DNA of 64,000 nucleotides from a virus: the IMG/VR virus record IMGVR_UViG_3300009514_000888, positions 96,001-160,000 of that record; one strand, 5' to 3'. This document shows positions 21,300 to 29,748 of this stretch, piece after piece. Each line of letters begins with the position of its first letter. Position 1 is the stretch's first letter. A model generated the notes under the pieces. The model ran no database searches. It was not told the DNA's origin and saw only the letters and a program-made list of their open reading frames with translations. A program made the position numbers and the translations under genes.

Positions 21300-22073
21300 A
21301 TGAAGAATTTTATGGTAGCCAATTTGCGCGGCAAGGGTCGGTATGATGACCAGAAAATACAGACTCTTCTCAAGGCTCAAATTGAGAATAGTATAGAGGT
21401 TGGATGGTCTAGGTCTGATATCATTGTCCTGTCTAATTTTGAGTTTGAATACATGGGCGTCCGGCCTATCCTGACAGACTTGAATAAGTTCTGCTGGACA
21501 GGCTCCAAGATGTTCGGTATGAAATACCTCATGGATAATAATCTGGTATCTGATGGCATCATATGGGCGCGCGATCTAGACGCATGGCAAGGAGTATGGT
21601 TTGAGGAACCTGATGTGGCCGATGTTGGAGCGTCATATTATAGCCGTCCCACTTTTAATGGAGGAAGCGTGTTTTGGAGATTATCTGCTAAAGATATTGT
21701 AGATGATATTGTTGACAGGCTCGTTCAGGATAAGTCCAAAAGAGAAGAGCCTACGCTGAATGAGGTATTTAAGAGCGAACAATATAGCAGCCGAGTTACT
21801 GTGCTAAATTGCACGTATAATGTAGGGTGCTCAGGATATGTTCCCAGATATGAGCGCAGTATTAAGCCCATTCGAGTCTATCATTTCCACCCGTATAATC
21901 GCATTGCGTGGGAAACGCATTGCTTAGACAGAAATGGCCTGGGAGAAAAAGGACTGAATATCAGGCTAGAAAAACTCATTCGTAGGCATTATCCCAACCT
22001 CGCCACTGAATTGAGCGAAGAGGGCAAGTTGAGAGCCAAGCAAAAACGAGAAGATAGAATGGTCAAGAAATAA
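21300..22073 (+). CDS. Putative nucleotide-sugar transferase-like protein
   Basis: WARDLDAW (DxD-like), FNGGSVF, EEPTLN and YNVG motifs; GT context. Confidence 0.55.
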   Translation: MKNFMVANLRGKGRYDDQKIQTLLKAQIENSIEVGWSRSDIIVLSNFEFEYMGVRPILTDLNKFCWTGSKMFGMKYLMDNNLVSDGIIWARDLDAWQGVWFEEPDVADVGASYYSRPTFNGGSVFWRLSAKDIVDDIVDRLVQDKSKREEPTLNEVFKSEQYSSRVTVLNCTYNVGCSGYVPRYERSIKPIRVYHFHPYNRIAWETHCLDRNGLGEKGLNIRLEKLIRRHYPNLATELSEEGKLRAKQKREDRMVKK

Positions 22074-22663
22074 TGGGTTATGATAGCAAATATTACAGCA
22101 GACATTTGGTGCAATATCGAGATTGGGAAATGTCTATATCTCGGGATATTGTCAGCAGATATGGAATCAAGTCCATCATTGATTTGGGGTGCGGCGTCGG
22201 ATCATACCTGGAGGGGGCGCATGAGATGGGCATCCGCCCTTTACTTGGCTTAGAAATTAACTACAACATATCCAGGCATTTTACGCCTGCCGATATTTTA
22301 CCGTATATCAAAAAAGCAGATATTACACAACCCTTGGACTTCGGCAAGTTTGATTGCGCATGGTCCATAGAGGCCGCAGAGCATATTCGGACAGAAGGGA
22401 CCGAGCAATTCCTGGAAAATCTGTGTAATTCCGCCGAGAGATATGTTGTTATGTCTGCTGCTCCGCCAGGGCAAAAAGGAACAGGCCATATTAACCTGCG
22501 GCCTCAGTCATTCTGGATTAAGGAAATTGCGAGCAGAGGCTTCGCCTATCTGCCCGAGGAAGCTGAAAAAACGGTCGAGGTATGGGCGGATTGGAATCGA
22601 AAGAAAATACATAAGGTGCCTTGGTACCTGTATCGTAATCTCATGATATTCCTCAAGCCATAA
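22073..22663 (+). CDS. Class I SAM methyltransferase
   Basis: IIDLGCGVG, FDCAWSIEAAEH and GQKGTGHIN motifs. Confidence 0.88.
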   Translation: MGYDSKYYSRHLVQYRDWEMSISRDIVSRYGIKSIIDLGCGVGSYLEGAHEMGIRPLLGLEINYNISRHFTPADILPYIKKADITQPLDFGKFDCAWSIEAAEHIRTEGTEQFLENLCNSAERYVVMSAAPPGQKGTGHINLRPQSFWIKEIASRGFAYLPEEAEKTVEVWADWNRKKIHKVPWYLYRNLMIFLKP

Positions 22664-23565
22664 TGCCAGATAAGCCAGATATCCCTAGAGAGGTCATACA
22701 GCAGAGTCGGTTGTTGAGAACGATTTATGCGGGTTCAGACAAACCGACTCTGTTTACGCCTAATTACGGGGAATTTGGGCCTGTCCCGGACAAGATTATT
22801 CCTCTAGTTCATTATTTTGACAGTCCCCATAAAGCGGTTTGCTGCAAACGCGGAGATGAAGTTTTCTATCCTACCGCAAGCGAATTCTATTATGACTGGG
22901 AAGACTATATTGAGGATGAATATCGCTGGGGAGTTTTTGCTTACAAAAATAAATCCAAGAATCCCAAGATAGATGAACACGTTCGTATTTATCACGAACA
23001 GTTTCAGAAGATATTAGACCAATATGGGAGCCAATTCACATACATCCATATTTGGAAATTCCAGGTGGATCACTTGTGGAATGAATATGGCTGTCAGTTT
23101 CCGGTAAGCCTGCAACCGCTGATCACCAGACATATTCAAGCGGATATTGTCATATCCCCTAGAAACAGAAAATCCAGACCAGAAAACAATCTCATGATTT
23201 GGGATCAATTTATTGAAGCCATGCATACACATGGACATTCCGTTGGAAGTATTGGAGTTAAACACTATTCTTTAGAATTGGCACATTGCGATGTCAACTC
23301 ATGGGACTATGAAGACAATAGTAGCGCCGTCGTAGAGATGTTGCAAAATTGTAAGCTCTATGTGGGGCTGGATACTGGATCATCGCACTTGGCGTCCCTG
23401 CTGTCTGTTCCTATGATTGTTTTTTCACATGCTAATCAAAGATACTATCATACCGAATTGATGAGCAGGAGAACGTCGGGATACTATTTGGATTTGGGGA
23501 AAACCATAGATGACATCGAAATAGTAATAGACAAGACATTGGAGTATCTGAATGGCTCACAATAA
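22663..23565 (+). CDS. GT9-like protein
   Basis: YVGLDTGSSHLASLLSVPMIVF motif. Confidence 0.65.
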   Translation: MPDKPDIPREVIQQSRLLRTIYAGSDKPTLFTPNYGEFGPVPDKIIPLVHYFDSPHKAVCCKRGDEVFYPTASEFYYDWEDYIEDEYRWGVFAYKNKSKNPKIDEHVRIYHEQFQKILDQYGSQFTYIHIWKFQVDHLWNEYGCQFPVSLQPLITRHIQADIVISPRNRKSRPENNLMIWDQFIEAMHTHGHSVGSIGVKHYSLELAHCDVNSWDYEDNSSAVVEMLQNCKLYVGLDTGSSHLASLLSVPMIVFSHANQRYYHTELMSRRTSGYYLDLGKTIDDIEIVIDKTLEYLNGSQ

Positions 23566-24847
23566 ATACAATTGGGGTATTCTAACAGATACAGATGTTG
23601 AACTTATCATGGAATCTCTGTCTATGCTCGTCGAAAGATTTGGACGGGAAGAAACCCTGAAAGTCATGGAGGTTGGCGTCTGTCGCGGCAAGACCAGCCG
23701 AGGTATCAAGCATGAACTCGACAGACTGAGGGCAGTATATGAATATTGGGCCGTGGATTCAGGCGCAGGTATGGCAGGCAATGTGCTGCCGCCATTTGAG
23801 GGATGTAGGCTAGTGATTGGGAACTCGGAGGAATCATATATGGAGTTCCCTGATGATCTGCATTGGGTTTTTATTGATGGATGTCATTGTATTAATCATG
23901 TTATGTTGGATATACTGCATTATGCTCCCAAAGTTAGAGATGGCGGATTGATTGTTTTGCATGACACTAGCCCGCTTGCACAGGCTTGTAATCGACATCC
24001 GCCAGACTATCAAAAGCATGGACCCAGACATGCCGATTTTGGGACGGCTATTTTAGCGGCATTTGACAAATTGGACGTAGAGCATCGCCGAGATATGCAA
24101 TTGGTTCGATCTGCTCAAGACGAAGATGCATGTTGGGGAGGGGTATCGGTATTTAAGAAGGTCAAGAACCCAGAGGGAGCTCCGGTATATAGGGGCAAGG
24201 AGGGGCAGGACCGTTGGGCGATGGAGGTGCTGGGATATAAGCGCAATGGATACTTTGTGGATATTGGAGCACACAATGGGTACAACGATAGCAACTCCTA
24301 TGTCATGGAAAAATACTTCGACTGGGAAGGCATTTGCGTAGAGCCTAATACATATACCGAGGGCGAATTGCGCAAATATCGAAATTGCCATATCGAAACA
24401 TCATGTATTTCTGATGTCAATGGAGAAGTCGATTTTGTGCAGAGAGGGAGAAGAAAACAAGTCTCAGGTATTTATCATCCGGACGCCGACGAACATGTAC
24501 TTAGTCCGGTTGACCAATATAAACATCCACTCATCAAAAAGCCGTCGCTTACGCTAATCGCCCTATTGAAGAAATATCAGGCTCCCAGAATTATTGATTA
24601 TCTCAGCGTTGATGTGGAGGGCGCAGAACACCTGATACTCCAGGGGTTCGACTTCTCCAGATACAAGTTCTTGACTTTAACGATTGAACACAATTATTTT
24701 GAGGGCAATGGCTTTCCAAAGAAGAACCTCCAAAGAAGGCAGAAGGTGCAAGATACCCTTTTGTCCAATGGGTATCATCTGAATAAAACAGTAGTTGCCG
24801 ATGATTGGTTCTCGGTTTGGGAAGGACAGTCAACTACCCTCAGCTAA
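23552..24847 (+). CDS. Two-domain methyltransferase (Methyltransf_24-like plus FkbM-like)
   Basis: EVGVCRG..FIDGCH..HD followed by FVDIGAHNG..EPN..LSVDVEGAE; the last residues come from the inserted IS end. Confidence 0.85.
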   Translation: MAHNKYNWGILTDTDVELIMESLSMLVERFGREETLKVMEVGVCRGKTSRGIKHELDRLRAVYEYWAVDSGAGMAGNVLPPFEGCRLVIGNSEESYMEFPDDLHWVFIDGCHCINHVMLDILHYAPKVRDGGLIVLHDTSPLAQACNRHPPDYQKHGPRHADFGTAILAAFDKLDVEHRRDMQLVRSAQDEDACWGGVSVFKKVKNPEGAPVYRGKEGQDRWAMEVLGYKRNGYFVDIGAHNGYNDSNSYVMEKYFDWEGICVEPNTYTEGELRKYRNCHIETSCISDVNGEVDFVQRGRRKQVSGIYHPDADEHVLSPVDQYKHPLIKKPSLTLIALLKKYQAPRIIDYLSVDVEGAEHLILQGFDFSRYKFLTLTIEHNYFEGNGFPKKNLQRRQKVQDTLLSNGYHLNKTVVADDWFSVWEGQSTTLS

Positions 24848-25127
24848 AGCACGAGGGCTTGTCAGAGAGAGCTGACATCTTGAAAGATTCGTAGAATCTT
24901 TCAAGAGTTGACTAGACTAAGCAGAAAGGAGTGTTCTCCTAATATGCTACGTTAAGAGAGCTACAAGTACCAAGGGATGCCGCCCTAGTCCCCTGCTCTA
25001 CGCTAGACCTCTTTAATAGCACGTTTCCTGCAAAAGCAGGAAACTAAGCTCTCTTAACATTGTCGAAGGGCAATATACACAGGTTCCCAGTCCTGGCTTA
25101 CCGCATTAAAACTGGAACAAAAACACT
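24829..25127 (+). ncRNA. omegaRNA (HEARO-like) scaffold
   Basis: GTCAAC/GTTGAC pairing; GACTAAG, CTACGTT, CCTAGTCC and CATTGTCGAAGG motifs; 12-bp and 9-bp perfect hairpins. Confidence 0.82.
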
Positions 25128-26144
25128 ATGTTCATGCCAGTAGTTCATTCTGATCAGCAGCCCTTGATGCCAACAACGTCGAGCAGGGCGAGGCGTTGGA
25201 TGGCTCAAGGCAGGGCTACTGGATTCTACAAGAAAGGAGTATTCTGTGTTCGACTCAACGTAACTCCATCAGACACCAAAACCCAGACAATCGCTGTAGG
25301 CATCGATCCAGGATCAAAGCGAGAAGCTTACACAGTTAAATCGCAATCTCATACATACCTCAATCTGCTGTCTGACGCAGTAGATTGGGTGAAGGAAGCA
25401 GTAGAACAACGCCGTAACATGCGACGAGCAAGACGCTCCAGGAAAACCAGATATCGAATTGCCAGATTCAATAACAGAAAAAAGAGCAAGATTGCGCCTT
25501 CCACGAAATCCAGGTGGCACCTGAAACTTAGAATCTGTGATTTATTGTCACAGATATTCCCTGTATCACAGTTCGTTGTTGAAGACATCAAAGCTAAAAC
25601 AACTGGTAAAAAGCGCTGGGACACCAGTTTCTCCCCTCTTGAAGTAGGCAAGCAGTGGTTTTATGAGCAGCTGAGTAGTTTTGCTCATGTTGTGACCAGA
25701 CAGGGATATGAGACAAAAGCGTTGAGAGACGAACTGGGACTCAAGAAGTCGAGTTCTAAGTTAGCTGACAAGTTTGAGTGTCACAATGTAGACAGTTGGG
25801 TTCTTGCGAATGCCGCCGTTGGCGGTCATTCGCATCCGGACAACAAGAGGATACATAGGCTACATCTGATCAGGTTGCACAGGAGACAGTTGCATGCGTT
25901 TCAGCATGGTAAGGGCGGCGTTCGCCGCCCTTACGGAGGGACGCGTAGTTTGGGATTTAAGCGAGGAAGCTTCGTACAGCACAAGAGGAGAGGAGTATGC
26001 TTTGTAGGCGGGACGAGCAAGGACAGGGTCAGTTTGCATTGTATGCAAACTGGCAAGCGTTTAACGCAATCAGCTGAAGTTGTTGATTGCAGATTTTTGA
26101 GTTATTCTAGTTGGAGAGTAGGCATCGTTTCCTCCCCACACTAA
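25128..26144 (+). CDS. isrB: IsrB RNA-guided nickase (PLMP plus split RuvC, no HNH)
   Basis: PLMP, GIDPG (RuvC-I), Arg-rich bridge helix, VVED (RuvC-II), HNVD (RuvC-III); 338 aa. Confidence 0.85.
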   Translation: MFMPVVHSDQQPLMPTTSSRARRWMAQGRATGFYKKGVFCVRLNVTPSDTKTQTIAVGIDPGSKREAYTVKSQSHTYLNLLSDAVDWVKEAVEQRRNMRRARRSRKTRYRIARFNNRKKSKIAPSTKSRWHLKLRICDLLSQIFPVSQFVVEDIKAKTTGKKRWDTSFSPLEVGKQWFYEQLSSFAHVVTRQGYETKALRDELGLKKSSSKLADKFECHNVDSWVLANAAVGGHSHPDNKRIHRLHLIRLHRRQLHAFQHGKGGVRRPYGGTRSLGFKRGSFVQHKRRGVCFVGGTSKDRVSLHCMQTGKRLTQSAEVVDCRFLSYSSWRVGIVSSPH

Positions 26145-26175
26145 AGTATTGGGGGTTTCCACGATGCTGATCACT

Positions 26176-26934
26176 ATGATTTTTCTGCATAATGGTGCAA
26201 CAGGAGATATCGTTTATTCTCTGCCCTCGGCAATCGCAATGGGAGGAGGGCACTACCAGGTCAAAAAGCCAGGCCAGTTCCGCCTTCTCAAACGGCTCCT
26301 CGAAGCACAGCCCTACCTGACGCAAGTATCTCATTACAATAAGCTCACTGGATATGCACAGTTCGGAGATCAGCCCTTTTTCGACTTTGATAGATATAGG
26401 GAACATCCCAGGGTCAAGAGGTTTTATGACCATCCAGAAGAGGCGATTAATATCGCCAAAGCCCATCTGGAAACCGCCAATGTTCATTTTGATCTTGCCC
26501 AACAATGGCTATTCAATATAGAACCAAAAACGGAGGCAGATATCGTCATCCATAAGACCGAGAAGTATCGTAACTTTGAAGGCAAGAACTATATTCCTAC
26601 AATCGACTGGACGCTTTTGGAGGCATATGCAGATCGGTGCGTGTTTGTGGGATATGAGAAGGAACAAAAGATATTTAATCGCTGGTATACAGACCGCAAA
26701 TTCGAAGTCCCCTGGTATGGCTGCCAAGATATCTACGAAATGGCTCAGATCATTGCTGGGTCGAAGATGTTCATAGGCAATCAGTCCATCGGATTTGCTG
26801 CGGCAGAAGGCATGAAACACCCCAGGGTTCAGGAAACATGCCTGCGCATACCGAACTGTTTGCCGCATGGCAAGGACGGCCATACAGAATTGAGCATAGA
26901 GCTGATTGAGAAATACCTGAATAGGACAGCATGA
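26176..26934 (+). CDS. GT9-like protein
   Basis: GATGDIVYSLP and FIGNQSIGFAAAEG motifs. Confidence 0.65.
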   Translation: MIFLHNGATGDIVYSLPSAIAMGGGHYQVKKPGQFRLLKRLLEAQPYLTQVSHYNKLTGYAQFGDQPFFDFDRYREHPRVKRFYDHPEEAINIAKAHLETANVHFDLAQQWLFNIEPKTEADIVIHKTEKYRNFEGKNYIPTIDWTLLEAYADRCVFVGYEKEQKIFNRWYTDRKFEVPWYGCQDIYEMAQIIAGSKMFIGNQSIGFAAAEGMKHPRVQETCLRIPNCLPHGKDGHTELSIELIEKYLNRTA

Positions 26935-27536
26935 TGCATAACTTGGAAATCCAGAAATTAGCGCAAGATACGGTTGTCGGTAGATATGATATCTACAAAC
27001 TCGTTAAAAAGATTGGGCTTAATAACAATGTTGCCGAGATAGGGGTGGCAAAAGGTAAGAACTTCGCCAAAATCGTCTGGTATGCTCTGCCCAAGTATGC
27101 GGTGGGCATTGATCTTTGGGAATGGACAGAAGACAATTTGTGGTGGACACAGGAGTTCTTTGATAGTTACCGACGTAAAATAATAGAAGCAAAACCCGCT
27201 CTGGAAGAAAAGACCGGGGCTAAAATTGACTACATCAAGGGCGACTGCCACAAAATAGTTCATCAGTTTGAGGATGAATTTTTTGACTTCATATACATCG
27301 ACTGCGACCATAGATACGAATATGTCAAAAGAGACCTGAATGACTGGTGGCCCAAGCTGCGATCTGGAGGGATCATGGCAGGGCATGACTATCTAGAGAA
27401 ATCTTGCTGGAAAGGCGCGTGGACCTACGGAGTCGTGACTGCCGTGAATGAGTTTGTGAAGGAACATGAACTTTCCTGGATGCATTTAACTACTAAAGAT
27501 AGCGATCCTAGCTATATGTTCCTGAAACCAGAGTGA
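26931..27536 (+). CDS. Class I SAM methyltransferase (Methyltransf_24-like)
   Basis: AEIGVAKG, FDFIYIDCDH and GGIMAGHDY motifs. Confidence 0.9.
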   Translation: MMHNLEIQKLAQDTVVGRYDIYKLVKKIGLNNNVAEIGVAKGKNFAKIVWYALPKYAVGIDLWEWTEDNLWWTQEFFDSYRRKIIEAKPALEEKTGAKIDYIKGDCHKIVHQFEDEFFDFIYIDCDHRYEYVKRDLNDWWPKLRSGGIMAGHDYLEKSCWKGAWTYGVVTAVNEFVKEHELSWMHLTTKDSDPSYMFLKPE

Positions 27537-28244
27537 GTGTAAGCAACGGGGGACAAACTGAGCCATATCGAATTTGCCAATGCATTTCGCGGTTTCAGCC
27601 CCCAACAACTGACGAGCGTTAAGCACCTTTCTAACTTCATTTGCTGCCAGGCTGGTTTGGCTCTCAATCGAAAATCAATCGATATGGACCTTTCCCGTTT
27701 GATAGAATGTTGGGGCGGCGTCAAATGCAAACAGTATCCCGATGAGCTGGCTCGATTACTGGTTTATATCTATAATAATAAGCATAAAATCAATAGTTAC
27801 CTGGAAGTGGGTATAGAAAATGGGGGAACGTTTTTTGTGATAGACAGCTTCTTGAGAGCAGTCAATCCGAAATACGAAGGGGGGTACGGGGTGGATGTGC
27901 GATATCGTCGCGGTAGCCTCAATATGATCTTGGACTACCAGATGGCGTACCCTGATAGCTATATCAAGATAGTTCATGCCAACCATGTTTATGAATGGAC
28001 GGTTCCCAAAACCTTTGACCTGTGTTTCATCGATGCAGAACATCGCTATCATGCAGTTCTTAGGGATTACACGAAGTATAAGCCGTTCTCAAAGATTATG
28101 GCTTTTCATGATATTGCGTTGCCTATGCGAGAGAAGTCCACATCGGATTTGTGGGAAGAAATTAAAACAGAAGATTCGATAGAAATATTGAATGAGGACG
28201 ATAGATTTCGTACTCCGGTTGGAATCGGAATACTGAATCCGTGA
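27533..28244 (+). CDS. Methyltransf_24-like protein, apparently frameshifted at a G5 run near its 5' end
   Basis: YLEVG, FDLCFIDAEH and MAFHDI; the frame is open from 27543 without an ATG, while a coupled GTG at 27533 is in another frame. Confidence 0.7.
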
Positions 28245-28984
28245 AACCAACTCAGAAATCAGCAGATATCTACCGATGCTTCGGCACTGGACTCGGGGAC
28301 ATTCTTATATCCCTGAGTGTTTATTATGACTACAGTCAGAACCGCAATGAGATCATGCAACTGTCCTCGTGGTATCCTAAATATATAGGAGAATCCTGCA
28401 AACATCGAAACTGCGATCTTAAATTAAGAGAGATATATTCCCTGATTGAGGAACCCGAAAATGCCGCGATAGAAATTGTCAAAGATGAGCCTACGCATAT
28501 ATTTAATGTGGATGCCATGAATCAAACAGTATTTAAGAGATCAAGGCCATGTTGGCTACCGCGTCAGCATAAGACTATATCTTATCAATTGAATGCATCC
28601 TCCAAAAGGCGTTACAATATGTCTCAGGAACAGCAGGGAGAGTTGATATGCCAATGGCAGAAAAAGGGATATGAGACAGTGGGTTTGGGGACTCGCTTCT
28701 CTTTGGAAGAATGCGCCAAAGTGTTGTCGAACAGCTGGGCGTTCGTGGGGGCTGCAAGCGGAATGGCTTCTCTCGGATATGCGGTAGGCGTGCCTGTGTT
28801 TTTGATACGTAATGGATTCTGCTTGGACTATCTGATGCAAATCAGGCATGGTCATTTTGTTATTGTCGAGGATTATGACGAGTTCCAGGAGACGTTCCCT
28901 CAATATCTGTCGCATGGCATGGATTATTATAGACAGATCGCTTGTAATGCAGACCTCCTGAATCATCCGATACAAACGTCATGA
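28241..28984 (+). CDS. GT9/fucosyltransferase-like GT-B protein
   Basis: GTGLGD and FVGAASGMASLGYAVGVP motifs. Confidence 0.55.
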   Translation: MKPTQKSADIYRCFGTGLGDILISLSVYYDYSQNRNEIMQLSSWYPKYIGESCKHRNCDLKLREIYSLIEEPENAAIEIVKDEPTHIFNVDAMNQTVFKRSRPCWLPRQHKTISYQLNASSKRRYNMSQEQQGELICQWQKKGYETVGLGTRFSLEECAKVLSNSWAFVGAASGMASLGYAVGVPVFLIRNGFCLDYLMQIRHGHFVIVEDYDEFQETFPQYLSHGMDYYRQIACNADLLNHPIQTS

Positions 28985-29748
28985 ATGTATTAGTCACAGG
29001 CCATAGCGGATTCATTGGCTCGCATCTCTATCGTGCTCTTTTGGCTGACGGCCATTATGTTCTGGGATGGGATGATGTCCGGAACCCATCTTCCATTACC
29101 ATGGCCGTCAGTCAAGCAGATGTCATTTTTCATCTAGGCGCTCGCGTCAATACATTGGAACAGGATGTGAATCGCATTATGTTCGAGAACTACCATATCA
29201 CAAAGATATTGGTTGATGAGGCAGAAGAAAATGGAGCAAAGGTTGTATTCGCATCTTCTGCGGCGACTTATGGCGTCTCTGGTACACCAGCAAATGCCTA
29301 TGGATGGAGCAAGTATTGCGCCGAGCAATATGGACTTAAAGCTTGCTCTAGATTTGTCTCCTTACGCTACTTTAATGTCTATGGACCAGGAGAGGGGCAC
29401 AAGGGAGCGATGGCGTCCGTGGCTACACAGTCGATGCAGAAAGGAAGTTTTACACTATTTCCAGGTAAACCATCAAGAGATTTCGTTTATGTCTTTGATG
29501 TTGTTAACGCGAATATCTGGGCCATGGAAAATATTGAGCATGGAGTTTATGAGGTAGGTAGCGGAGAATCCAGAACCTTTGAGGATGTATTAAGCATATT
29601 GGGCATTCCATTCGATTACCATGACGCATCATCCATTCCGCATGGATATCAGATGCGAACACAGTCTGATTGCGAACAATGGATGCCTGGCTGGAGTCCA
29701 CGCTATACGCTAGAATCCGGGTTAACGGAATATTTGAGATCGCCATGA
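28981..29748 (+). CDS. hldD: NDP-sugar epimerase, ADP-L-glycero-D-manno-heptose 6-epimerase-like
   Basis: GHSGFIG, ASSAATYG, YGWSK and LRYFNVYGPGEGHKGAMASV motifs. Confidence 0.72.
   Translation: MNVLVTGHSGFIGSHLYRALLADGHYVLGWDDVRNPSSITMAVSQADVIFHLGARVNTLEQDVNRIMFENYHITKILVDEAEENGAKVVFASSAATYGVSGTPANAYGWSKYCAEQYGLKACSRFVSLRYFNVYGPGEGHKGAMASVATQSMQKGSFTLFPGKPSRDFVYVFDVVNANIWAMENIEHGVYEVGSGESRTFEDVLSILGIPFDYHDASSIPHGYQMRTQSDCEQWMPGWSPRYTLESGLTEYLRSP

What the first reader, a model, noticed from the sequence alone, without database searches (positions are those of the whole stretch)
24800..26179. Complete IsrB OMEGA element with reconstructable empty site, guide and TAM, inserted without destroying either flanking gene
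Seen: deleting 24829-26175 gives ...TGG GAA GGA CA|A TGA..., which restores the stop of the methyltransferase and the ATGA overlap with the next gene, the coupling used throughout this operon. The element end supplies a replacement stop (adding STTLS). All three RuvC motifs are intact, HNH is absent and there is no tnpA. Established: IscB/IsrB guides are the flank 5' of the omegaRNA scaffold with a 3' TAM, and NTGA/ATGA-type TAMs are reported. Inference: guide = ...GATTGGTTCTCGGTTTGGGAAGGACA and TAM = ATGA, so the nickase targets element-free copies of this phage locus. An ATGA target lets the element exploit stop/start overlaps as safe sites. It is a candidate compact 338-aa programmable nickase.
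Basis: partly seen in the sequence, partly recalled or inferred. Interest (0 to 1): 0.78.

Follow-up and report, generated by a model that had tools for sequence, protein, structure and literature searches.

The report
IsrB guide-RNA transposon at phage gene junction
A 1.35-kb mobile element carrying the RNA-guided DNA nickase IsrB and its guide RNA sits intact on the four letters ATGA where one gene of a huge phage stopped and the next started; it is a well-preserved new member of an already described class, not a new kind of system.

Summary
Window 24829-26175 (+) is a complete, single-copy IsrB-omegaRNA element.

- **RNA:** a full-length HEARO/omegaRNA match (111 bits) starts exactly at 24829.
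- **Protein:** a 338-aa ORF has the PLMP motif, an Arg-rich bridge helix and RuvC residues D60/E152/H219/D222. It has no HNH domain. Its best sequence and fold match is DtIsrB (8DMB).
- **Empty site:** removing the element gives ...GGACA|ATGA. That restores the methyltransferase stop and a 4-nt stop/start overlap, as at four other junctions of this operon.

No element-free allele of this phage was found. The boundaries, guide and TAM rest on 38 relatives instead:

- A conserved GTCAAC left end follows unrelated flanks.
- A right-end hairpin and a 17-21 nt spacer are followed by ATG[A/G].
- The fourth flank base covaries with the residue matching DtIsrB Q326: Q with A, K/R with G.
- One relative has a true empty allele that matches N|ATGA exactly and rules out the rival GT|GA cut for that relative.

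ISC1/IsrB transposons with a 5'-GTCA end and an N|ATGA target (Kapitonov 2016) and NTGA/NTG TAMs (Hirano 2022) are already published. This scan has also reported similar phage insertions in at least 7 other genomes. Nicking activity and homing remain inferred.

The parts
23552..24847 (+). Upstream FkbM-type two-domain methyltransferase gene. Its last 19 nt (24829-24847) are element sequence that adds STTLS plus a stop.
   Evidence: ORF list. Pfam Methyltransf_24 and Methyltransf_21. Homologues at 43-49% identity have C-termini of variable length after the DWF motif.
24809..24828 (+). Predicted guide segment: the 16-20 nt of flank immediately 5' of the scaffold, ending ...GGGAAGGACA.
   Evidence: It directly abuts HEARO model position 1. 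Flanks upstream of GTCAAC are unrelated in 20 or more relatives. The 16-mer is unique in the 186-kb record. The guide length is inferred from DtIsrB's 20-nt guide (PMC9581776).
24829..25127 (+). omegaRNA scaffold and the left end of the element as written here (the 'RE' in TnpA convention). The HEARO match covers 24829-25078; the rest up to the ORF probably belongs to the RNA.
   Evidence: cmscan RF02033 at 111.2 bits, E 2e-23, full model. Meers et al. note that RF02033 lacks downstream omegaRNA elements.
24837..24857 (+). Left subterminal hairpin: CCCTC stem with an 11-nt loop containing CTAAAG. The loop's TAA (24845-24847) is the replacement stop of the methyltransferase.
   Evidence: DNA fold. 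Same stem and loop geometry as the right-end hairpin. An in-frame stop lies at +19 in 14 of 21 family members.
24878..24906 (+). Perfect 13-bp hairpin with a 3-nt loop, inserted in the omegaRNA relative to the HEARO model.
   Evidence: Self-inverted match. It falls inside a longer stretch of unaligned extra sequence in the cmscan alignment.
25128..26144 (+). isrB gene, 338 aa. PLMP motif at 12-15, Arg-rich bridge helix at about 95-110, RuvC D60/E152/H219/D222, TAM-reading candidates R311 and Q314.
   Evidence: Pfam RRXRR only. phmmer to 8DMB DtIsrB, E 3e-37. AF2 model pLDDT 75; Foldseek top hit 8DMB, E 3e-25, TM 0.73/0.75. Invariant columns.
26122..26167 (+). Right subterminal hairpin overlapping the isrB stop. 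Inner stem is CCCCA/TGGGG (26134-26154) with an 11-nt loop containing CTAAAG. Outer stem is GCATCGT/ACGATGC.
   Evidence: DNA fold, -9.2 kcal/mol. The same hairpin followed by TTTCC occurs in 20 or more relatives.
26155..26175 (+). 21-nt right terminal spacer (20 nt counted from the wider G run at the stem foot); the element ends at 26175 (...ATCACT).
   Evidence: The spacer is mostly 17-21 nt in 23 relatives and is always followed by NTG[A/G]. An empty site of relative L018 confirms that this end lies directly before ATGA.
26176..26179 (+). ATGA. It is at once the target/TAM, the original TGA stop of the methyltransferase, and the ATG start of the downstream gene.
   Evidence: Sequence. TAM base 4 covaries with the Q314-equivalent residue. 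NTGA/ATGA TAM of DtIsrB. N|ATGA target of ISC1-1_MA.
26176..26934 (+). Downstream gene (252 aa from the ATG at 26176). The source's gene caller starts it at the ATG at 26164, inside the right end (256 aa).
   Evidence: ORF list. Homologues P0051-P0055 have 4-5 residues before the conserved F-x-H-x-G motif, so they do not decide between the two starts.

Best explanation
Window 24829-26175 is an intact, non-autonomous ISC1-type transposon of the IS200/IS605 superfamily. It carries one omegaRNA gene and one isrB gene (the HNH-less relative of IscB/Cas9) and lies in a fragment of a huge phage.

It inserted immediately 5' of an ATGA tetranucleotide that was the stop/start overlap between a methyltransferase gene and the next gene of a sugar-modification operon.

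Shown by sequence and comparison:
- The element's ends, its two matching subterminal hairpins, the full omegaRNA, and an IsrB with every catalytic and TAM-reading residue conserved.
- The insertion changes the methyltransferase's last codon only synonymously (CAA to CAG).
- It adds five residues, up to a stop in the first hairpin loop.
- It leaves the downstream ATG in place.

Inferred mechanism:
- Read-through transcription of the operon produces an omegaRNA whose 5' 16-20 nt are the last bases of the methyltransferase gene.
- IsrB loaded with that RNA recognises genomes that have this sequence followed directly by NTGA. Those are element-free or freshly excised copies of the same phage locus.
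- IsrB nicks the non-target strand. Recombination with an occupied copy then reinstalls or spreads the element.
- The occupied site is protected because GTCA replaces NTGA next to the guide match.
- Transposition to new sites would need a Y1 TnpA supplied in trans by the host or the missing part of the phage.
For: - RNA: HEARO at 111 bits, starting exactly at 24829.
- Protein: Pfam RRXRR only, no HNH. DtIsrB 8DMB is the best hit by sequence (E 3e-37) and by fold (E 3e-25, TM 0.73-0.75). D60, E152, H219, D222 and R311 are invariant in the family.
- Left end: GTCAAC plus hairpin plus GCTTG begins abruptly after unrelated flanks in 20 or more relatives.
- Right end: a hairpin over the stop codon, then TTTCC, then a 17-21 nt spacer, then ATG[A/G], in 23 relatives and in the window.
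- TAM readout: 14 of 15 xTGA flanks have Q at the Q314 position and 8 of 9 ATGG flanks have K/R (Fisher p 1e-4). This mirrors the experimental role of DtIsrB Q326 and its Q326R mutant (PMC9581776).
- Empty site in a relative: L057 equals L018 minus its element, with junction CTAG|ATGA. The N|ATGA reconstruction is identical at 129 of 133 positions, while the GT|GA reconstruction adds a mismatch at the junction.
- Prior literature: N|ATGA target and 5'-GTCA terminus for ISC1-1_MA (PMC4810608). Guide lies outside the element, needs read-in transcription, and upstream genes are co-oriented (Meers et al.).
- Same geometry elsewhere: stop restored at +4 in the empty site and at +19 in the occupied site in relatives L020 and L018.
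Against: - No element-free allele of this phage was found in IMG/VR, GenBank phages, the protein collection or the sequencing-run index. The closest homologues of the flanking genes are only 40-49% identical.
- There is only one copy in the record and no tnpA, so mobility in this genome is not shown.
- No RNA data exist for the omegaRNA.
- No sigma-70-like promoter stands out above shuffled controls.
- IsrB makes a nick, not a double-strand break, so homing efficiency is uncertain.
- Homologue C- and N-termini of the flanking genes vary in length. They therefore neither confirm nor refute the reconstructed gene ends.
Confidence: 0.85

Rival explanations
1. Same element, but cut as in the Ktedonobacter ISC families (target GT|GA). 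The element would be 24831-26177 (5'-CA...AT-3') and the empty site ...GGACAGT|GATTT. The methyltransferase would end CAG TGA and the next gene would start with GTG in a GTGA overlap.
For: Kapitonov et al. verified GT|GG and GT|GA insertion for several ISC families whose occupied sites also read GTCA...ATGR. A GTGA overlap exists in this same operon at 28241. Both models give identical proteins, guide and NTGA TAM, so this locus alone cannot separate them.
Against: The one empty site recovered for this clade (L057 versus L018) matches N|ATGA and mismatches GT|GA at the junction base. ISC1-1_MA and GstIscB were also shown to follow N|ATGA(A). Relative L025 has GTGA where its sister L038 has ATGA, as expected if that base is flank and not a fixed terminus.
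Confidence: 0.06
2. The element is a stranded passenger. It is structurally intact but no longer moves or homes in this phage, because no TnpA or no empty alleles are left. It persists only because it is harmless at a gene junction, or it has been co-opted for a phage function such as excluding related phages.
For: Single copy. No tnpA in the record. Base composition is indistinguishable from the flanks: GC 0.47 against 0.44-0.46. Four other ATGA/GTGA junctions in the same operon are unoccupied. Related phage contigs L004/L005 hold a truncated IsrB relic, which shows that decay does occur.
Against: All catalytic, bridge-helix and TAM-reading residues and the full omegaRNA are preserved. That is not expected for long under neutral decay. 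About 98% of iscB genes lack a nearby tnpA, so its absence is normal for working elements (Meers et al.). The record is only 39% complete.
Confidence: 0.2
3. Not an insertion. The omegaRNA and isrB are an old, fixed part of the operon, and the restored ATGA overlap is a coincidence.
For: No empty allele of this phage was seen. Composition is not deviant.
Against: Homologous operons in related contigs have no such gene next to the methyltransferase or the downstream gene. Both ends carry the family's conserved transposon termini, and relatives sit in unrelated contexts. A relative has a documented empty site.
Confidence: 0.02

Closest known systems
ISC1 transposons, e.g. ISC1-1_MA of Microcystis aeruginosa NIES-843 (Kapitonov, Makarova, Koonin 2016, PMC4810608)
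   Same: Non-autonomous element of about 1.3 kb that encodes only an HNH-less IscB1 (= IsrB). It has a 5'-GTCA terminus and subterminal imperfect hairpins, makes no target duplication, and inserts at N|ATGA as verified by empty sites.
   Different: The host is a huge uncultured phage, not a cyanobacterial chromosome. It is a single copy. The 3' terminus is ...CT rather than ...CG. Direct similarity to ISC1-1_MA was not measured; the IsrB genes of Microcystis phages (LMM01 and kin) are about 36% identical to the window's.
DtIsrB-omegaRNA of Desulfovirgula thermocuniculi (PDB 8DMB; Hirano et al. 2022, PMC9581776)
   Same: Same domain order: PLMP, split RuvC, bridge helix, HNH-replacing linker, C-terminal TAM-interacting domain. 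It is the best sequence and fold match. An R...Q pair spaced as DtIsrB R323/Q326 is present. DtIsrB's NTGA TAM includes ATGA.
   Different: About 27% identity over the structural alignment. 338 aa against 351 aa. The omegaRNA carries an extra 13-bp hairpin. No biochemical data exist for this protein.
GstIscB / ISGst IS605-family elements (Meers et al. 2023, bioRxiv 10.1101/2023.03.14.532601)
   Same: The omegaRNA end abuts the guide-giving flank. The TAM TTCAT equals ATGAA on the nuclease-sense strand. TnpA is absent from most elements. The nuclease cleaves the empty donor joint to retain the transposon.
   Different: GstIscB has an HNH domain and makes double-strand breaks; IsrB only nicks. 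Here the setting is a phage, where the empty targets would be co-infecting genomes or replicated copies.
Phage-borne IsrB/RRXRR genes: K2IsrB from a viral metagenome (Hirano 2022), Microcystis phage LMM01 and kin, Bacillus phage vB_BspM_AgentSmith, huge phage LR745208
   Same: IsrB genes inside phage genomes. Identity to the window's protein is 56% (LR745208), 43% (AgentSmith) and 36% (LMM01). K2IsrB recognises an NTG TAM.
   Different: In GenBank these are annotated only as RRXRR or hypothetical proteins. Their insertion-site logic was not examined in the papers I read.

Membership tests
IsrB (HNH-less IscB, OMEGA nickase) | N-terminal PLMP domain | tested here: met
   PLMP motif at residues 12-15. 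Pfam RRXRR covers residues 4-156. P12, L13, M14 and P15 are invariant in the family alignment.
IsrB (HNH-less IscB, OMEGA nickase) | Split RuvC domain with intact catalytic D/E/H/D and an Arg-rich bridge helix | tested here: met
   D60, E152, H219 and D222 are invariant. They align to the DtIsrB motifs. An Arg-rich stretch spans residues 95-110.
IsrB (HNH-less IscB, OMEGA nickase) | No HNH domain between RuvC-II and RuvC-III | tested here: met
   No HNH Pfam hit at E <= 0.01. Only 66 residues separate E152 and H219. The fold matches IsrB (TM 0.73/0.75) better than any IscB.
IsrB (HNH-less IscB, OMEGA nickase) | C-terminal TAM-interacting domain with base-reading residues | tested here: met
   A beta-rich C-terminal domain is modelled at pLDDT 80-90. 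R311 is invariant. Q314 covaries with the fourth flank base across 24 elements.
IsrB (HNH-less IscB, OMEGA nickase) | Cognate omegaRNA encoded directly upstream on the same strand | tested here: met
   HEARO RF02033 at 24829-25078, 111 bits, full model, ending 49 nt before the ATG.
IsrB (HNH-less IscB, OMEGA nickase) | RNA-guided nicking of the non-target strand | not testable with these tools
   Needs biochemistry.
ISC1 / IS200-IS605 superfamily non-autonomous transposon | Subterminal imperfect hairpins at both ends; no terminal inverted repeats; no target-site duplication | tested here: met
   The two hairpins have 5-bp stems and 11-nt loops that share CTAAAG. The flanks ...ACA and ATGA... 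share no repeat.
ISC1 / IS200-IS605 superfamily non-autonomous transposon | Site-specific insertion next to a 4-nt target (N|ATGA) | tested here: met
   The window's flank is ATGA. Of the 23 relatives, 22 have ATG[A/G] and one has GTGA. A relative's empty site confirms the cut position.
ISC1 / IS200-IS605 superfamily non-autonomous transposon | Presence/absence polymorphism or several copies showing mobility | tested here: inconclusive
   This locus is a single copy and no empty allele was found. Relative L018 does have an empty allele, L057.
ISC1 / IS200-IS605 superfamily non-autonomous transposon | Y1 (HUH) TnpA available in cis or in trans | tested here: inconclusive
   No PF01797 match in the 186-kb record. 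The record is only 39% complete and the host is unknown.

The most novel reading that the evidence does not exclude
This IsrB clade may be specialised for gene junctions, above all in phages.

- Both transposase and nickase read ATGR, so copies accumulate exactly on start codons.
- The conserved first 19 nt carry an in-frame stop. It re-terminates any upstream gene whose TGA lay in the ATGA target.
- In phages the element would spread without TnpA, by nick-induced recombination between co-infecting genomes. It would then be an RNA-guided equivalent of free-standing phage homing endonucleases.
Probability: 0.3. Interest if true: 0.6.

Novelty: new member of a known kind. Interest (0 to 1): 0.35.

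Why it matters
It adds a clean, apparently functional IsrB-omegaRNA pair from a huge phage, with a readable natural guide and TAM. The comparison set also gives a purely genomic confirmation of the experimentally found TAM-reading residue: Q pairs with A and K/R with G at the fourth TAM position. That rule could be used to predict the TAMs of uncharacterised IsrBs from sequence alone. It also illustrates how an ATGR-specific transposon can sit in tightly packed phage operons without breaking genes. None of this changes the current picture of OMEGA systems. The value is as a well-documented example and a possible enzyme candidate.

Tried and rejected
**Searches for an element-free allele of this phage all failed.**
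- Exact empty-site pattern in IMG/VR: no match.
- A degenerate pattern that I mis-specified (wrong first codon) was wasted. The corrected degenerate pattern, covering both cut models, also found nothing.
- Back-translated search with the downstream protein in IMG/VR: nothing.
- tblastn of both flanking proteins against GenBank phages: no hit, or only distant partial hits.
- The large protein collection gave only 40-49% identical homologues, in differently arranged operons.
- Sequencing runs: none was listed.
- The genome search 'relatives' is not available for virus records.

**Other dead ends.**
- Rfam at the gathering threshold missed most relatives' omegaRNAs. A permissive scan and a motif search were needed instead.
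- My automatic hairpin finder for the right ends was too noisy. I replaced it with hand-anchored ends.
- L004/L005 turned out to be a truncated IsrB relic lacking both the omegaRNA and the right end, so they were useless for boundaries.
- Megablast of the AgentSmith and LR745208 loci found no element-free relatives.
- Exact-protein look-ups for the flanking genes of L026, L033, L031 and L042 returned only occupied contigs, or contigs without DNA.
- Promoter and terminator scans were not above shuffled expectation.
- I tried to separate the two cut models with the IS608 cleavage-site/guide pairing rule recalled from memory. I dropped this as unreliable.
Full report
**1. Setting**

The window is bases 96001-160000 of a 186-kb IMG/VR virus record that CheckV estimates to be 39% complete. 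Earlier notes of this scan treat it as a huge phage. The finding lies in a co-oriented operon of methyltransferase, glycosyltransferase and sugar-epimerase genes. The genes of this operon are joined by 1-nt (TAATG) or 4-nt (ATGA/GTGA) overlaps.

**2.

The sequence reads ...GGAAGGACA|GTCAAC... at 24828/24829 and ...GATCACT|ATGATTT at 26175/26176. Removing 24829-26175 gives TGG GAA GGA CAA TGA, with an ATG overlapping the stop.

In the present state the methyltransferase ORF (23552-24847) runs 19 nt into the element. It ends ...WEGQSTTLS at a TAA. Its last original codon changes only from CAA to CAG, both Gln.

Homologues of the methyltransferase (43-49% identity) have C-terminal tails of different lengths after a conserved DWF motif. 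A five-residue addition is therefore plausibly harmless, but these homologues cannot prove where the gene originally ended.

Homologues of the downstream gene have 4-5 residues before a conserved F-x-H-x-G motif. The ATG at 26176 gives 2 such residues, and an in-frame ATG at 26164 inside the element's end gives 6. The source's gene caller chose 26164. Either start would work.

**3. What the insert is**

- Rfam's HEARO model, the RNA now known as the IscB/IsrB omegaRNA, matches 24829-25078 over its full length at 111 bits against a gathering score of 83. Model position 1 falls on 24829.
- The ORF 25128-26144 (338 aa) hits only Pfam RRXRR, with no HNH.
- Its best solved relative by sequence is DtIsrB (8DMB, E 3e-37).
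- An AlphaFold model built on 17 family sequences (pLDDT 75, pTM 0.72) has 8DMB as its top Foldseek hit (E 3e-25, TM 0.73/0.75). The HNH-bearing IscBs come next.
- In the family alignment the PLMP motif, D60, E152, H219, D222 and R311 are invariant.
- The record holds one copy only and no Y1 transposase gene.

**4. Boundaries, guide and TAM from relatives**

No near relative of this phage exists in the collections. I therefore fetched 38 loci encoding IsrBs 40-69% identical to this one. They came from metagenomes, from Chloroflexota and Poribacteria MAGs, and from two GenBank phages.

*Left end.* In 20 or more loci a conserved GTCAAC-ACC-hairpin-GCTTG block begins abruptly after flanks that share nothing with each other. 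This places the guide/scaffold border of the window element at 24829.

*Right end.* In 23 relatives and in the window, a hairpin overlapping the isrB stop codon is followed by TTTCC and a mostly 17-21 nt variable spacer. Then comes ATG[A/G], or GTGA in one case. The two hairpins of the window element have 5-bp stems and 11-nt loops that share CTAAAG. These are the subterminal hairpins expected of IS200/IS605 elements.

*TAM readout.* I sorted the elements by the fourth flank base:
- 14 of 15 xTGA flanks have Gln at the position of the window's Q314.
- 8 of 9 ATGG flanks have Lys or Arg there (Fisher p 1e-4).
- The sister pair L042 (ATGA, Q) and L043 (ATGG, R) shows the switch directly.

This is the behaviour shown experimentally for DtIsrB. 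There R323 reads G3, Q326 reads A4, and the Q326R mutant accepts G (PMC9581776). So the four bases after the right end really are what the nuclease reads. The window protein (R311, Q314) is predicted to need NTGA, and its flank is ATGA.

**5. A published ambiguity, and its resolution**

Kapitonov, Makarova and Koonin (PMC4810608) described these elements as ISC1 transposons. They showed by empty sites that ISC1-1_MA inserts at N|ATGA with a 5'-GT terminus. They also showed that the Ktedonobacter ISC families, which look the same when occupied (GTCA...ATGR), actually cut at GT|GG or GT|GA.

For the window, the second model would shift both ends by 2 nt (24831-26177). The empty site would then be ...CAG TGA with a GTG start. 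That gives the same proteins, guide and NTGA TAM, so this locus alone cannot decide.

An exact-protein look-up of the gene downstream of relative L018 (IsrB 60% identical) returned contig JACKQG010017657.1 (L057), which lacks the element. L057 aligns to L018's left flank joined to its right flank at 129 of 133 positions, with the junction CTAG|ATGATAAC exact. The four mismatches are upstream SNPs. The GT|GA reconstruction adds a mismatch at the junction base. N|ATGA therefore holds in this clade. I keep 24829-26175 for the window and give about 6% to the shifted alternative.

**6. Family-level habits**

- The ATGR after the right end opens an ORF of at least 100 codons in 11 of 21 informative elements. 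Only 17% of control ATGR sites in the same flanks do so (p 2.5e-4). Two examples are a phage tail-sheath gene (L026) and a gene two genes upstream of a prohead protease gene (L018/L057).
- In L020 and L018 the reconstruction shows the same geometry as in the window. The upstream frame stops at the TGA of ATGA in the empty state, and 19 nt into the element in the occupied state.
- That +19 stop, a TAA or TGA in the first hairpin loop, is present in 14 of 21 family members. The other two frames run to a median of about 41 nt.
- I cannot tell whether this stop is selected or is a by-product of the conserved loop.
- Earlier agents of this scan reported the same two habits on other phage genomes. 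I re-derived them here on an independent set of loci.

**7. Mechanism**

Steps that are shown:
- The element's anatomy, intact motifs and target motif.
- The guide-giving flank. Its 16-mer is unique in the record.
- Co-orientation with the upstream gene.

Steps that are inferred from the literature:
- Read-in transcription makes the omegaRNA (Meers et al.).
- The RNP nicks the non-target strand of DNA that carries the flank followed by NTGA (Hirano et al.). Only element-free copies have that arrangement.
- Recombination then copies the element back, as restorative or non-restorative homing (review PMC13565253).
- The occupied site escapes because GTCA replaces NTGA. The third base is C instead of the G read by R311.

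From my own knowledge, nicking homing endonucleases such as I-HmuI of Bacillus phage SPO1 show that a nick can drive homing in phages. I did not check this in the library. No promoter signal stands out, and no expression data could be obtained.

**8. Verdict**

The thing itself is a new member of a known kind:
- ISC1/IsrB transposons with GTCA ends and an N|ATGA target were described in 2016.
- The guide/TAM logic was published in 2021-2023.
- IsrBs from viral metagenomes have already been characterised.
- This scan has already met the same configuration in at least seven other genomes.

- An empty-site confirmation in the clade.
- A natural-variation confirmation of the TAM-reading residue.
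- Numbers for the start-codon and replacement-stop habits.

At 338 aa the protein is not meaningfully smaller than known IsrBs.

Noticed in passing
L010:4398-5000, L011:717-1319, L012:4398-5000 (absent from L008/L009): In related phage-like contigs, a 200-aa NUMOD3 (homing-endonuclease-type) gene sits between the DegT aminotransferase gene and the homologue of the window's downstream gene. In L008/L009 those two genes overlap directly. So a different selfish element is parked just upstream of this gene's homologue in other genomes.
   Followed up: no
L004:3013-3636 and L005 (IMG/VR contigs): A 207-aa C-terminal fragment of an IsrB (63% identical). It has no omegaRNA and no right-end hairpin, and abuts the next gene. 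It is a decayed relic of the same element family in another phage.
   Followed up: partly
window 24845-24847 and 21 relatives' left ends: The loop of the first omegaRNA hairpin (CTAAAG or CTGAAG) puts a TAA or TGA exactly 19 nt into the element, in the frame of a gene whose stop was the TGA of the ATGA target. This holds in 14 of 21 elements. The other two frames stay open for a median of about 41 nt.
   Followed up: yes
window 24878-24906: A perfect 13-bp hairpin with a 3-nt loop is inserted in the omegaRNA relative to the Rfam HEARO consensus. It lies at roughly the position where DtIsrB tolerates deletion of a stem-loop (nt 34-67; PMC9581776).
   Followed up: no
window 26066-26099: A terminator-like hairpin (9 pairs) followed by a T-run lies inside the 3' end of isrB, about 80 nt before the downstream gene's start. 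Such sites are not significantly more frequent here than in shuffled sequence.
   Followed up: no
L014 / MW749006.1 (Bacillus phage vB_BspM_AgentSmith): This cultured 200-kb phage has two matching places for the IsrB protein in its record. One has a weak HEARO match (L014:1244-1422). It could serve as an experimental model for phage IsrB homing.
   Followed up: no
L026 (metagenome contig Ga0326597_10022870), ATG at 1248: An IsrB element ends directly before the start codon of a 733-aa phage tail-sheath gene, which is followed by tube and baseplate genes. The IsrB has Q at the TAM-reading position but the flank is ATGG. It is one of the two exceptions to the covariation; the other is L051.
   Followed up: partly
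window 21300-29748: A long co-oriented operon holds at least five SAM-methyltransferase-like genes, a GT9-like gene and an NAD-dependent epimerase gene, joined by overlapping stop/start codons. It is a large sugar-modification cluster for a phage.
   Followed up: no
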